NCBI RefSeq assembly: GCF_013167455.1
Contig: NZ_CP038328.1
Strand: one strand, 5' to 3'
Length of the DNA stretch: 64,000 nucleotides
DNA from: Escherichia coli O157:H7
Lineage (GTDB): Bacteria > Pseudomonadota > Gammaproteobacteria > Enterobacterales > Enterobacteriaceae
The position numbers were made by a program. Position 1 is the stretch's first letter, and every line of letters starts with the position of its first letter. Positions 57,605-60,600 of the stretch are shown here, piece by piece.

Positions 57605-60600
57605 GCGGCTGGTAACAGTCCGTGGCACGGTAAACTCCACCCGGAGCAAGGCCAAATAGGGGTTCATAAGGTACGGCCCGTACTGAACCCGGGTAGGCTG
57701 CTTGAGCCAGTGAGCGATTGCTGGCCTAGATGAATGACTGTCCACGACAGAACCCGGCTTATCGGTCAGTTTCACCTGATTTACGTAAAAACCCGCTTCG
57801 GCGGGTTTTTGCTTTTGGAGGGGCAGAAAGATGAATGACTGTCCACGACACTATACCCAAAAGAAAGCGGCTTATCGGTCAGTTTCACCTGATTTACGTA
57901 AAAACCCGCTTCGGCGGGTTTTTGCTTTTGGTGCACAGGGTAAGATGAATAAATATCTACGGTATTAATAATAGACCTTGTAAGAAGTTATTAAGTCTAT
58001 ATTGCATTTAAAAGGTCGTAATTATACGTATAGTTCTCTCTGGTAAAATATTGATTCTCTGAGTTATATGCTTCATATGTGTTATATTCCCCGACCTCAA
58101 AACCATTGTCCGGAGAATTTTCGTCTTTCTCGAGGGTGTTATCTGAAAATAACTCTTCTGAGCTAGAGTCTTCTATGTTTAAATCCATAGTATAATTAAT
58201 TTGGGGAATGACCAGATAAGCATTTTCTTTGATATTTTCATAATCTTCAATGATTATGTCGATATAATTATGTATTTTTTCTGATGAGAAATCTATCATC
58301 TCTGGTAATTTAATTCTGTTCAAGCAATTATTGATTTTCGATGAGCTTTTATATATTTCTTTTGTTAAATCATTTTCTAATTTATCTGTGAGAGTTGCTC
58401 TTGGTATAGATTTTATAATTGCAAATCTCATAATTTTTAATTGTTCTTCGGTAATATCTCCAAGCTCATTTAAACAACTTTCGACAAACTTAATTTTTTC
58501 TTCAGAATACATATCGCTAATGCTTGTTAAAACAGGCGTTATTTTTAGTAAATAATCCCAGGAGATTTTGGCGTTTTGTGTTGAACTAACAAAATTAACC
58601 TGAAACATGTTGGCATTAGTAAAATTTGTTGAATTCAATTTAAAAGGATTTAAAATAGTATTAGCCATATGTTTATCTGTGAAATCATAATAATCTAAAT
58701 CGACATTACGTAAGTCCAGAGAGGATAGATCAACGATATCTCCAGTCCCACAACTAAAAATTACGTTTAACCTCCTGAATTCATTGTAAATATCTTTTAA
58801 TGGGCAATTAATATTGATATTACCTGTGGATATTTCCTGGTTTTTTAACGGTTCATTAATGGTAAGTTCACAAGTATTGTCCGATCGTTGAATAATTTGG
58901 GCGTTATAACCTAAAAAATCCAGACGAAGAGACGAGTCATTATAAAGAATTACATTTTGTAAGTACGCTAATTCTTTTTGAAAATCACCAGTGATAATGC
59001 ATTTTCCACTAGGTTGTAACGTGTTAAGTAAAGTGACCATTTCAATAGAGGTCTGTTTTAGTTTTTCAATACCTGGTGCTAGTGCTTCGAGGTTATTTCC
59101 TGTTGGGCTTTCAGGTAGGTCATTCATTTTTCGACGGACTAAATCACTACTAATATCATTACCAATTGATGAAACAGGGAACATTATTTTATCCTTTATA
59201 AATAATCAATAAAAATCATTATTAAAATGATCGGGTGAAAAAAAGAGAATTTGCCAACAATCTGAAGTAATACTGGTTTTATTAAAGTACGCAGGGGGTG
59301 TTAAGATGGCTTCTTTTCGGGTGAATTTTGCACAATACTTAGAAATCGTCTCCTTAATACATTCCAGCTCTTTTTTATTGACGGCTGAGCAAGTACATTT
59401 TTCGCCAAAAGGTGCAAAAGTGCCTACATCTAATGTTTGTATGATATAATCGTCATGTTCTCCTGTAGAAATATCTATGATGAATGGACTCATATTTTCC
59501 GGTTGGATTCGGATCATGACAGAAGGAACATCGCCTTGATAGAAATTCAATGCAGTAATTGCAGATAATACTCTCCGCAGTTCATTACTTATACTGTAAA
59601 TTTTATTAACGTCATTGGTGGAGACAATTTCTGCAAACTTTCTTTTTACCGTCCAATAATCAATATTTCTATTGTGATTGTTAACCACTGCGTGCATTGG
59701 TGGGATTGAAGGGTGAAAAATATGTGCAATTGGGAAGCCTTTCATTGATGCCTGCCTTGTCATCATGACAAACAATAATAGATGCTTATTTTCCTCGCAG
59801 GGTTCTTTCGCACTATCAAAAAACGCTCATTTACCCGGCGTTACAGTAAACGAAGCAACATTCTGTGGCCTACGCCGATCAAAAGCTCTGTGAAAATTTC
59901 CCTTGTTGTCTTTGTCTGACCTTATCGCGGCGATCAGCAATTATTCGTTTTGTGATCCTCAATACAAAATGCTATTCGTCGCCTATGAAGGAAGAAGAAT
60001 TTATGGAAAACGATTGCATTCACAAAATGACGTCCTGTCAGAAGAGAAAAAGTTGACGTTAATCAATTGTTCGAGATGATCAATACCTGTATTCGAAATT
60101 TTAAAATATTGATAAAATAAATGTTTGTTCTCCAACAAATAGCGTGAAAAAATGTGACGTGCCGCATTATTTATCGCTGAAAATGGTTTATTTATAATAA
60201 AATTTGAGAACTTGCTCATTAAATTTAACTCAAATTTTGCCTGGTAATTATCCGGTAATTGCTTGAAATATGGTCTCAGCCCCTTTTTTGTATTAACCAC
60301 ATAACGAATGATGTTATCGCCATAAAATATGGTTATCCCCGTCATTTTTTTTGACAAAAATCAGGGTTTATGCTGATTTTTATACTTTAATTTATTGATA
60401 TTTAAAGGTATTTAATTGACATGACGATACCCTGGAAAGTATTGAAAGTTAATTTGTGAGTGGTCGCACATATCCTGTTCATTTCATTTTGATACACTTC
60501 ATGCCGTCAATGAGGTAATTAACGTAGGTCGTTATGAGCACTATTCTTCTTCCGAAAACGCAGCACCTGGTAGTCTTTCAGGAAGTCATTAGAAGTGGTT

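What the first reader, a model, noticed from the sequence alone, without database searches (positions are those of the whole stretch)
57728..57942. Tandem duplication of the rnpB 3' end and terminator
The last roughly 50 nt of M1 RNA plus its terminator hairpin (57728..57820) are repeated at 57829..57931 with a roughly 20-bp internal insertion, giving two consecutive strong terminators. Repeats downstream of rnpB are known from K-12, but copy number and the insert vary, so this is a strain marker and may affect 3' processing or read-through into yhaC.
Basis: partly seen in the sequence, partly recalled or inferred. Interest (0 to 1): 0.35.

Follow-up and report, generated by a model that had tools for sequence, protein, structure and literature searches.

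The report
Repeated rnpB tail and terminator
Just after the E. coli O157:H7 gene for RNase P RNA, the gene's last 50 bases and its terminator are repeated once; this repeat was already known from K-12 and varies in copy number between strains, but its core turns out to be conserved across many enteric genera.

Summary
The window is E. coli O157:H7, and rnpB lies at 57401-57777 (+). Segment 57728-57818 (the last 50 nt of M1 RNA, a 7-nt trailer and terminator T1) recurs at 57829-57931. The two copies show 89 matches, 2 mismatches and one 12-nt gap, not about 20 bp. They share a 64-nt identical block, and both hairpins fold at -19.4 kcal/mol.

This is one unit of the rnpB-distal repeat that K-12 carries as 113 bp x 3.5. 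A unit-specific 61-mer occurs in 3,874 of 5,426 complete E. coli genomes, at 1 to 8 copies (median 2). So the O157 state is a common copy-number allele, and the repeat is usable as a strain marker.

The most likely role is a second intrinsic terminator. The hairpin is nearly symmetric, so it probably works in both directions between highly expressed rnpB and convergent yhaC. Unequal recombination would expand and contract the array.

A short coding frame with a ribosome-binding motif is present but is not conserved, so I reject it.

One result was unexpected. The same unit follows rnpB in Salmonella, Klebsiella, Citrobacter, Enterobacter-like taxa, Yokenella, Cedecea, Buttiauxella and Mixta. 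Its M1-derived part is conserved far above the flanking spacer, and this remains unexplained. The rnpB 3' end is also an integrase target in related genomes.

Novelty: already known. Interest: low to moderate.

The parts
57365..57393 (+). Promoter-like site for rnpB (GTGACA, 17-nt spacer, TATACT), ending 8 nt before the M1 5' end.
   Evidence: Consensus scan, 10 of 12 matches. The position relative to the Rfam match start at 57401 comes. Promoter function is inferred.
57401..57777 (+). rnpB, the gene for M1 RNA, the catalytic RNA of RNase P (class A).
   Evidence: RF00010, 318.6 bits, model positions 1-367. Annotated as rnpB in the identical O157:H7 record.
57728..57777 (+). Copy 1 of the repeated segment, inside the gene. 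It consists of box A (57728-57748: J18/2, the P2 3' strand and the start of J2/4), the P4 strand AGAACC (57749-57754) and box B (57755-57776: the end of P4 and the P1 3' strand), plus the final T.
   Evidence: Alignment of the two copies. Structural assignment from the cmscan structure line.
57778..57818 (+). Trailer and terminator T1. The hairpin is 57785-57812 (12 bp, UUCG loop) and the U-rich tail is 57813-57818.
   Evidence: -19.4 kcal/mol, z -3.93, 0 of 200 shuffles fold as well. The sequence is identical to K-12. The literature calls this terminator rnpB T1 (PMC3643576).
57819..57828 (+). Spacer between T1 and the unit. GGAGG at 57817-57821 straddles the end of the T1 tail and the start of the spacer, and resembles a ribosome-binding site 9 nt before the ATG at 57831.
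   Evidence: Read directly from the sequence. The spacer is poorly conserved between genera (0.51 mean pairwise identity).
57829..57849 (+). Box A of the repeat unit, AGATGAATGACTGTCCACGAC, identical to M1 57728-57748.
   Evidence: Mean pairwise identity is 0.92 across 19 lineages.
57850..57867 (+). Unit-specific linker ACTATACCCAAAAGAAAG. It is a 12-nt insertion plus a mutated P4 strand (AGAAAG in place of AGAACC).
   Evidence: Homologous linkers of 13 to 19 nt occur in all other arrays. The part of the linker not fixed by the search pattern averages 0.75 identity, against 0.47 for shuffled controls.
57868..57890 (+). Box B of the unit, a pseudo 3' end of M1 (CGGCTTATCGGTCAGTTTCACCT). It contains the 12-nt core CTTATCGGTCAG that integrases use in related genomes.
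   Evidence: Identical to 57755-57777. The attL and attR junctions in L051 and L072 share this core.
57891..57931 (+). Trailer and terminator T2. The hairpin is 57898-57925 and the tail is 57926-57931. Read on the - strand it is also the first hairpin with a U-run downstream of the yhaC stop codon.
   Evidence: -19.4 kcal/mol, z -4.17. Flagged by the terminator scan. The reverse strand folds at -17.3 kcal/mol and is followed by UUUUUAC.
57943..57964 (+). Degenerate start of a further unit (AGATGAATAAATATCTACGGTA), marking the distal edge of the array next to AT-rich DNA.
   Evidence: 73% identity to box A. The same distal flank is present in K-12 and other E. coli. GC content falls to about 0.29 from 58000 onward.
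57997..59184 (-). yhaC, the neighbouring gene, convergent with rnpB. It is context, not part of the repeat.
   Evidence: ORF list. Annotated as a YhaC family protein in the identical record.

Best explanation
The feature is one unit of the rnpB-distal tandem repeat of enteric bacteria, in its single-unit allele.

Anatomy of a unit:
- a disabled copy of the M1 RNA 3' end, with a 12-nt insertion in J2/4 and two substitutions in the P4 strand;
- the same 7-nt trailer as follows M1;
- an exact copy of the rnpB terminator.

Proposed mechanism:
1. The unit has no promoter-like site of its own, so it is transcribed only when RNA polymerase reads through T1.
2. T2 then stops that read-through, so it acts as a fail-safe terminator behind a very strongly transcribed stable-RNA gene.
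3. The hairpin is flanked by an A-run and a U-run, so it can also terminate transcription arriving from convergent yhaC. This would keep antisense transcription out of rnpB.
4. The array grows and shrinks by unequal homologous recombination or slippage within the roughly 95-nt block that successive copies share (box B, terminator, spacer, box A). The real M1 3' end is the fixed left anchor. This explains 0 to 8 units among E. coli strains and why T2 is identical to T1.

What is shown: the anatomy, the hairpin energetics, the identity with the K-12 repeat, the copy-number polymorphism and the cross-genus distribution.

What is inferred: termination at T2, bidirectional action, and the recombination mechanism.
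For: - Position and anatomy.
- Terminators: two identical hairpins at -19.4 kcal/mol with U-rich tails, and a reverse-strand hairpin followed by U5. T2 is flagged by the terminator scan. T1 is a terminator characterised in the literature as rnpB T1 (PMC3643576).
- No promoter: no sigma-70-like site between 57394 and 58006 on either strand.
- Same thing as K-12: a 113-bp unit x 3.5 at the same place, with the same linker and the same distal flank.
- Copy number: 3,874 of 5,426 complete E. coli genomes carry 1 to 8 units, 8,500 in total, all chromosomal. Arrays with 0 to 4 units were read directly.
- Concerted evolution: within each species the units carry that species' own M1 terminal sequence and terminator type. 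Distal units are the most degenerate.
- Single anchor: in 112 loci there is never a second M1-type copy carrying AGAACC.
- Convergent neighbour: yhaC is convergent, and there is no other terminator-like site between its stop codon and T2.
Against: - Nothing here measures termination. T1 read-through frequency and T2 efficiency in O157:H7 are unknown.
- About 29% of E. coli genomes have no unit at all, including one O157-like strain. The second terminator is therefore dispensable.
- A pure 'spare terminator plus passenger DNA' model does not predict what is seen between genera. The passenger part is better conserved (box A 0.92, linker 0.75) than the spacer (0.51) and trailer (0.56), while the terminator sequence itself turns over.
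- Conversion from the real gene cannot easily explain this conservation. Box A is only 21 nt, the linker has no counterpart in M1, and M1-type duplicates are never seen.
Confidence: 0.72

Rival explanations
1. The unit has a sequence-specific function beyond termination. Its M1-derived core (box A, the 12-nt insert and box B) would be under purifying selection. It might act as a cis-acting RNA element that handles T1 read-through transcripts. For example, it could offer a second copy of the strands that pair with the M1 5' end (P1 and P2), or it could keep box B paired locally so that T2 can fold. Alternatively it might be a protein-binding DNA or RNA site.
For: - Breadth: the same core follows rnpB in at least 12 named genera and 28 metagenomic lineages.
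- Conservation across 19 lineages: box A 0.92 and the unforced part of the linker 0.75, against 0.51 for the adjacent spacer, 0.56 for the trailer and 0.45-0.47 for shuffled controls.
- In a metagenome scan that left the linker unconstrained, every one of 24 linker variants belongs to one family, RCTWTNYYNRAAAGAAMG.
- The E. coli and Salmonella linkers are identical over 18 nt.
- The unit keeps both strands complementary to M1 nt 1-18, and a possible internal pairing GACUG/CGGUC.
Against: - No covariation supports any unit-specific helix: 0 of 8 predicted pairs show compensatory change.
- The unit has no promoter of its own.
- No Rfam family matches apart from a partial RNase P hit of 20 bits.
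- 29% of E. coli genomes lack units, and K. aerogenes keeps only a remnant.
- The search patterns fixed parts of box A and box B in the metagenome set. Only the 19-lineage set leaves box A and most of the linker unforced. In 17 of those lineages the pattern fixed the last 5 nt of the linker and the first 15 nt of box B. Salmonella and K. pneumoniae were found by BLAST instead.
- Conversion from rnpB, or horizontal exchange of the rnpB flank, could inflate the apparent conservation.
Confidence: 0.25
2. The units are by-products of, or decoys for, site-specific integration at the rnpB 3' end. Each unit carries a near-perfect copy of the attachment core (CTTATCGGTCAG). It could therefore act as a secondary attB that lets islands integrate without touching the essential gene. 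Alternatively the first unit arose as an att scar of an ancient element.
For: - In L051 (which carries E. coli-type rnpB-flank sequence) and L072 (another, unidentified lineage) a 7.7-7.8 kb insert begins exactly in M1 box B. It ends with ...CCTTATCGGTCAG followed by the host-type 3' end, terminator and units.
- The insert encodes a tyrosine integrase next to the junction, plus an invertase, a flagellin and a FljA-like repressor.
- 18 complete E. coli genomes have this islet between rnpB and yhaC.
- E. roggenkampii has the same left end, followed by prophage genes.
- In Cedecea the same left-end sequence is joined to box B of the unit, leaving M1 and T1 intact.
- Arrays in K. pneumoniae and three non-coli Escherichia lineages end in a unit cut off inside box B and followed by unrelated DNA.
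- In the window, GC content falls from 0.53-0.60 to 0.29-0.35 immediately after the array.
Against: - In 3 of 4 lineages the element sits in the real M1 end even though units were available downstream. The unit is therefore not a preferred site.
- The two P4 substitutions lie in the left arm of the would-be attB.
- The right end of the present-day element does not resemble box A plus linker, so units are not its scars.
- There is no integrase and no flanking direct-repeat pair in the window.
- Tandem, regular periodicity is what unequal crossing-over produces, not serial integration.
- Box A lies about 40 nt from the core, outside any usual attB.
Confidence: 0.1
3. The unit encodes a small protein. 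The frame would be the 45-codon one at 57831-57968 (MNDCPRHYTQKK...), preceded by GGAGG 9 nt upstream. In K-12 the successive unit frames overlap by ATGA, as translationally coupled genes do.
For: The ORF and the ribosome-binding-like motif are present. In K-12 each 113-bp unit carries a 38-codon frame that ends in the next unit's ATGA.
Against: - The frame is not conserved. It stops after 9 codons in three Enterobacter-like lineages. Linker lengths of 17, 18 or 19 nt change the frame downstream, and peptide lengths range from 9 to more than 41 codons.
- Differences between K-12 copies fall on second codon positions: GAT, GGT and GTT.
- The frame runs through the terminator hairpin, so any RNA ending at T2 would lack a stop codon.
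- There is no promoter.
- The GGAGG is absent from most other genera.
Confidence: 0.02

Closest known systems
The 113-bp repeats downstream of rnpB in E. coli K-12. From my memory they were first described with the gene sequence by Reed, Baer, Guerrier-Takada, Donis-Keller and Altman, Cell 1982. That paper is not in the held library, so the citation was not checked here.
   Same: Same locus, between rnpB and yhaC. Same unit anatomy and the same 18-nt linker. The M1 end, T1 and spacer are identical. The distal flank (GGTGCACAGGGTAAGATGAATAAATATC) is the same.
   Different: O157:H7 has one unit where K-12 has three. Its unit carries an intact terminator identical to T1. In K-12 the last unit's terminator is degenerate and interrupted by REP/BIME-type palindromic elements. 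These I recognised by eye in the sequence (GCCGGATGCGGCGTGAACGCCTTATCC...). The rnpB-yhaC gap is 219 bp in O157:H7 and 613 bp in K-12.
Tandem fail-safe terminators behind stable-RNA operons, for example T1-T2 of the rrn operons, and bidirectional intrinsic terminators between convergent genes. Both are established concepts, cited from general knowledge.
   Same: There are two strong GC-rich hairpins with U-tails in series behind a highly expressed stable-RNA gene. The hairpin is flanked by an A-run and a U-run and lies between convergent genes.
   Different: Here the second terminator is an exact copy of the first, and it comes packaged with a disabled copy of the gene's 3' end. The number of terminators is polymorphic between strains. 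Function was not measured.
Duplicated 3' ends of tRNA and tmRNA genes (and of icd) created by integrative elements. In this classical attL/attR arrangement the element supplies a replacement 3' end. Cited from general knowledge.
   Same: A partial copy of a stable-RNA gene's 3' end lies downstream of the gene. In related genomes the rnpB 3' end does behave in this way, with an integrase islet and a 12-nt identity core.
   Different: In the window there is no element and no integrase between the copies. The copies are about 100 nt apart in a regular tandem array. The copy extends about 40 nt upstream of the crossover core and carries a 12-nt insert. The known islet's right end does not resemble the unit.

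Membership tests
rnpB-distal tandem repeat (K-12 113-bp type) | Lies immediately 3' of the rnpB terminator T1, on the rnpB strand. | tested here: met
   The unit starts at 57829, 11 nt after the T1 tail. K-12 has the same arrangement.
rnpB-distal tandem repeat (K-12 113-bp type) | The unit repeats the last ~50 nt of M1 RNA, with the characteristic internal 12-nt insertion, followed by a copy of the terminator. | tested here: met
   89 of 91 aligned bases are identical and there is one 12-nt gap. The linker ACTATACCCAAAAGAAAG is identical to K-12 units 2 and 3.
rnpB-distal tandem repeat (K-12 113-bp type) | Period of about 113 bp between unit starts. | tested here: met
   It is 101 nt from the M1 copy to the unit, and 114 nt from the unit to the degenerate next start. 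K-12 has 101, 113 and 113.
Intrinsic (factor-independent) terminator | A GC-rich hairpin immediately followed by a U-rich tract on the transcribed strand. | tested here: met
   Each of T1 and T2 is a 12-bp stem with a UUCG loop, -19.4 kcal/mol, z about -4, followed by UUUUGG after a stem that already ends in U5GC. The scan flags T2 only, because of its tail rule.
Intrinsic (factor-independent) terminator | RNA 3' ends form at the U-tract, in vivo or in vitro. | not testable with these tools
   No transcript data are available. T1 is used as a terminator part in PMC3643576. T2 has the same sequence from the trailer through the tail.
Bidirectional terminator | A symmetric A-run, stem and U-run, placed between convergent genes, so that the reverse strand also gives a hairpin followed by a U-run. 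| tested here: met
   The core AAAAACCCGC-TTCG-GCGGGTTTTT is nearly symmetric. The reverse strand folds at -17.3 kcal/mol (T2) and -15.7 kcal/mol (T1), followed by UUUUUAC. yhaC is convergent. Actual termination was not tested.
Integrative-element attachment site (attL/attR direct repeats) | An integrase gene and element DNA lie between two copies of the target's 3' end. | tested here: not met
   In the window only 51 nt separate the end of M1 from the start of the unit, and no integrase lies nearby. The feature is met in related loci L051, L072, L115 and L126.
Small protein gene | The open reading frame and its peptide are conserved among relatives. | tested here: not met
   The frame stops after 9 to 39 codons, or runs past the end of the 126-nt segment analysed. 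It changes register after linkers of 17 to 19 nt.
Structured non-coding RNA family (Rfam) | A match at a family's gathering score, or a structure supported by covariation. | tested here: not met
   The only match is a partial RNase P hit of 20.3 bits against a threshold of 100. RNAalifold finds 8 invariant pairs and no compensatory changes.

The most novel reading that the evidence does not exclude
The rnpB-distal unit is not passenger DNA. It would be an ancient module, present across the Enterobacteriaceae and in one Erwiniaceae genus (Mixta). Its disabled M1 3' end (box A, the 12-nt insert and box B) would be kept by selection. Possible roles include an RNA element that deals with transcripts escaping T1, for example by competing for or mimicking the P1/P2 strands of M1. 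Another is a site tied to the use of the rnpB 3' end as an integrase target.
Probability: 0.25. Interest if true: 0.55.

Novelty: already known. Interest (0 to 1): 0.3.

Why it matters
As it stands, the feature is a well-behaved, long-known repeat.

Practical value:
- It is a cheap copy-number marker: 0 to 8 units among complete E. coli genomes, 1 in O157:H7, 3 in K-12.
- It is a caution for assemblers and for anyone designing rnpB 3' probes or primers, or reusing the rnpB T1 terminator part.

Two side results give it wider interest:
- The unit's gene-derived core is conserved across many enteric genera, far better than the sequences around it. The 'spare terminator' explanation does not account for this.
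- The 3' end of rnpB, like those of tRNA and tmRNA genes, serves as an attachment site for integrase-bearing islands. These include a flagellin phase-variation islet in E. coli.

If the core proves to be functional, it would add an unrecognised layer to the biogenesis or protection of an essential ribozyme gene.

Tried and rejected
- Tandem Repeats Finder on 57000-58600 found nothing. There are too few copies and they carry an indel. The repeat finder and MAFFT did find the repeat.
- Small-protein reading: rejected by cross-genus translation.
- Independent small RNA with its own promoter: no promoter-like site lies in or just before the unit, and no Rfam family matches.
- Conserved unit-specific secondary structure: RNAalifold on 20 diverse units gave only 8 invariant pairs and no covariation. 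MAFFT aligned the variable terminators poorly, so terminator covariation was not assessed.
- Units as scars of the present-day rnpB islet: the islet's right end does not resemble box A plus linker.
- Units as preferred decoy attB sites: in 3 of 4 lineages the element is in the real gene end.
- Copies on phages or plasmids: the only hits are chromosomal DNA filed as plasmid or phage records.
- Literature: the original K-12 sequence papers and the papers on M1 3' processing are not in the held library. Searches for rnpB with yhaC, integration sites or Term-seq gave nothing on the repeats. Statements about the 1982 description therefore rest on my memory.
- An IS1 insertion that truncates a unit in one E. 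coli strain is incidental.
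Full report
**What is in the window.** The window matches E. coli O157:H7 at 100% identity over the 800-base query 57401-58200. rnpB, the gene for the catalytic M1 RNA of RNase P, lies at 57401-57777 on the + strand (RF00010, 318.6 bits, full-length). A promoter-like site sits at 57365-57393. garK ends upstream. yhaC (57997-59184) lies downstream on the opposite strand, so the two genes converge.

**Checking the observation.**
- Segment 57728-57818 holds the last 50 nt of M1, a 7-nt trailer and terminator T1. It recurs at 57829-57931.
- The two copies show 89 matches, 2 mismatches and one 12-nt gap. That is 97.8% identity without the gap and 86.4% with it.
- The last 64 nt of each copy are identical.
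- A 31-nt core occurs twice in the window, against zero expected from shuffles.
AGAACC in the gene becomes ACTATACCCAAAAGAAAG in the copy, which is a 12-nt insertion followed by AGAA and then AG in place of CC.
- A third, decayed repeat start lies at 57943-57964 (16 of 22 nt).
- Tandem Repeats Finder misses the repeat.

**The terminators.** T1 (hairpin 57785-57812) and T2 (hairpin 57898-57925) have the same sequence.
- Each is a 12-bp stem with a UUCG loop, -19.4 kcal/mol, z about -4, followed by a U-rich tail.
- The core AAAAACCCGC-TTCG-GCGGGTTTTT is nearly symmetric. The - strand therefore also gives a hairpin followed by UUUUUAC.
- T2 is the first such signal downstream of the yhaC stop codon.
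- T1 is a terminator part known in the literature as rnpB T1 (PMC3643576).

**Relation to K-12.** In K-12 MG1655 the gap between rnpB and yhaC is 613 bp, against 219 bp here. It contains a 113-bp unit x 3.5.
- The M1 end, T1 and spacer are identical in the two strains.
- The O157 unit has the same linker as K-12 units 2 and 3 and the same distal flank.
- In K-12 the last unit's terminator is degenerate and split by REP/BIME-type palindromes, which I recognised by eye in the sequence.
- The window therefore carries the one-unit allele of a repeat that, to my memory, was described together with the K-12 gene sequence in 1982. I could not retrieve that paper.

**Variation within E. coli.** A 61-nt probe specific for the unit (box A, linker and box B; it cannot seed on the gene itself) gave the following.

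| Measure | Result |
|---|---|
| Complete genomes with at least one unit | 3,874 of 5,426 |
| Total copies | 8,500, all chromosomal |
| Copies per positive genome | 1 to 8, median 2 |

- In an evenly spaced sample of 40 positive genomes, 13 had one copy, 8 had two, 15 had three and 4 had four.
- I read representative arrays directly. There are no units in B2 strains, which have also lost yhaBC. There are also none in 'strain 350', which matches this window at 100% identity and has the same GarK and YhaB proteins as the O157:H7 record. Other strains have one, two, three or four units.
- Two terminator variants are shuffled among positions: a short hairpin and a longer CCAGCGTAAACCGG version.
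The insert itself barely varies within the species.

**Beyond E. coli.** Several independent searches found the unit in other genera.
- A scan of species-representative genomes used the unit-specific junction GAAAGCGGCTTATCGGTCAG. It found 18 loci.
- At least 16 of the 18 loci have the junction directly downstream of a full RNase P RNA gene. The other two (L010, L017) are short stretches in which no RNase P match was found.
- The genera include Enterobacter-like taxa, Cedecea, Citrobacter, Buttiauxella, Raoultella, Yokenella, Mixta and several Escherichia species.
- A metagenome scan that left the linker free (GACTGTCCACGAC, then 12-24 nt of any sequence, then CGGCTTATCGG) gave 94 more loci in 28 distinct lineages.
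- Chromosomal records misfiled as plasmids added Salmonella Senftenberg (six units), K. pneumoniae (two units, the second cut short) and K. aerogenes (a remnant only). Proteus and Acinetobacter match only the gene end.
- The anatomy is the same everywhere: box A (GATGAATGACTGTCCACGAC), a linker of 13 to 19 nt of one recognisable family (RCTWTNYYNRAAAGAAMG), box B (CGGCTTATCGGTCAGYTTCAMC), then a species-specific trailer, terminator and spacer. Periods run from about 85 to 128 nt.

**What the cross-genus comparison implies.** I compared the first unit of 19 lineages. In 17 of them only the last 5 nt of the linker and the first 15 nt of box B were fixed by the search pattern. Salmonella and K. 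pneumoniae entered the set through BLAST hits instead.

| Region | Mean pairwise identity |
|---|---|
| Unit box A | 0.92 |
| Linker, unforced part | 0.75 |
| Spacer | 0.51 |
| Trailer | 0.56 |
| Shuffled controls | 0.45-0.47 |

- The terminator keeps its form but not its sequence.
- Within a species, the units track that species' own M1 terminal sequence and terminator. Distal units are the most decayed. Both are the signature of unequal crossing-over in the long block shared by successive copies.
- That process cannot homogenise the units' box A or linker against the real gene. No array among 112 loci has a second gene-type (AGAACC) copy.
- The conservation of the gene-derived core is therefore not explained by the spare-terminator model. 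It is the one real puzzle here.

**Readings I tested and rejected or could not support.**
- Small protein. The unit carries a 45-codon frame (57831-57968) with GGAGG 9 nt upstream, and in K-12 successive frames overlap by ATGA. Across genera the frame stops after 9 to 39 codons, or runs past the end of the 126-nt segment analysed. It changes register with linker length, and it runs through the terminator. I reject it.
- Independent small RNA. There is no promoter-like site in or before the unit. No Rfam family matches other than a 20-bit partial RNase P hit.
- Unit-specific structure. RNAalifold on 20 diverse units finds only eight invariant pairs and no compensatory change.

**Integration at the rnpB 3' end.** This turned up while I was examining the related loci.
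- In two metagenomic loci the M1 box B is followed directly by 7.7-7.8 kb of foreign DNA. That DNA ends in ...CCTTATCGGTCAG, followed by the host-type 3' end, terminator and units. This is a classical attL/attR pair with a 12-nt identity core.
- The insert encodes a tyrosine integrase at the junction, an invertase, a flagellin and a FljA-type repressor.
- 18 complete E. coli genomes carry this islet between rnpB and yhaC.
- The same left end occurs in E. roggenkampii, followed by prophage genes.
- In Cedecea the same left end is joined to box B of the unit rather than of the gene.
- Arrays in K. pneumoniae and three non-coli Escherichia lineages end in a unit cut off inside box B.
- In the window, GC content drops from 0.53-0.60 to 0.29-0.35 right after the array.
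- The unit can therefore serve as an attachment site. In three of four lineages, however, the element chose the real gene end, and the islet's right end does not resemble the unit. The decoy and scar readings are accordingly weak.

**Verdict.**
The insert is 12 nt, read-through would be antisense to yhaC, and 3' processing is probably unaffected because everything up to the spacer is identical to K-12.
- The best-supported mechanism is a duplicated terminator, probably bidirectional, in a recombinationally unstable array anchored on the essential gene's 3' end.
- Termination and recombination are inferred, not measured.
- The feature itself is already known, and interest is modest.
- The open question worth a follow-up is why the disabled M1 3' end inside the unit is conserved across enteric genera.

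Noticed in passing
L051 508-8300; L072; L115 9251-18900 (E. coli strain H7); L126: A roughly 7.7-kb islet lies between rnpB and yhaC in 18 complete E. coli genomes and in a second, unidentified lineage (L072). It encodes a tyrosine integrase, a YagK/YfjJ-like protein, a Hin-type invertase, a flagellin and a FljA-like repressor. It is integrated exactly in the M1 3' end, with a 12-nt identity core CTTATCGGTCAG, so rnpB is an integrase target in the way tRNA and tmRNA genes are. It is probably the flk-type flagellar phase-variation islet of the literature, but I could not check where that islet was mapped.
   Followed up: partly
L130 4049-8088 (E. roggenkampii record filed as a plasmid): The same element left end (CTTCTTCTAAAACAATACGTTGGTGTGTCTCAGG) follows the M1 3' end. 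After it come prophage-type genes (S24 peptidase, DinI, tail fibre assembly). This suggests that a family of elements with different cargo uses this site.
   Followed up: no
L004 4555-4640 (Cedecea sulfonylureivorans): The same element left-end sequence is fused to box B of the repeat unit, not of the gene. It is followed by PAAR and S-type pyocin toxin genes, and no integrase lies in the 3.4 kb held.
   Followed up: partly
window 58000-60400: The yhaC, yhaB and tdcR block is strongly AT-rich (GC 0.29-0.40, against 0.49-0.60 upstream). It is absent from non-coli Escherichia (L005, L011, L013) and mostly deleted in B2 strains (L120). It looks like old horizontally acquired DNA lying against the distal edge of the repeat array.
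   Followed up: partly
L128 1768-1830 (K. pneumoniae); L005, L011, L013 (other Escherichia): Arrays often end in a unit cut off inside box B, at GGTCAG or GGTCAGTTTC, with unrelated DNA directly after. The cut lies at or just after the integrase crossover core. The pattern is unexplained. It may mark old integration junctions.
   Followed up: no
window 57815-57890: The unit aligns without gaps to positions 292-367 of the Rfam RNase P class A model (20.3 bits). The real E. coli M1 has a 12-nt gap against the model at exactly the place where the unit has its 12-nt 'insertion'. Proteus and Acinetobacter M1 also lack these 12 nt, so this may be coincidence.
   Followed up: partly
L019 ('Chryseobacterium sp. 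18061') and L017 ('Microvirga antarctica', 289-nt contig): Assemblies labelled as non-enteric species contain an enterobacterial rnpB with a five-unit array, or a tiny contig consisting of units. These are probably contaminant contigs in those assemblies.
   Followed up: no
L129 2049-2900 (Salmonella Senftenberg): Salmonella carries six units with two alternating terminator types (periods 108 and 116). The first-unit linker is identical to the gctatacccaaaagaaag form found in E. coli (K-12 unit 1).
   Followed up: partly
L001 2130-2400 (K-12, - strand): In K-12 and many other E. coli the terminator of the last unit is degenerate and interrupted by REP/BIME-type palindromes. After these comes a further decayed box B and terminator remnant (CATCAGTTTCAAACCCGCGTCAGTGAGTTTTTGCTTTTGG). 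O157:H7 lacks this insertion.
   Followed up: partly
L132 3001-3800 (E. coli 23CRST050): An IS1 insertion truncates the unit after 36 nt and is associated with loss of yhaC, yhaB, tdcR and part of tdcA.
   Followed up: no
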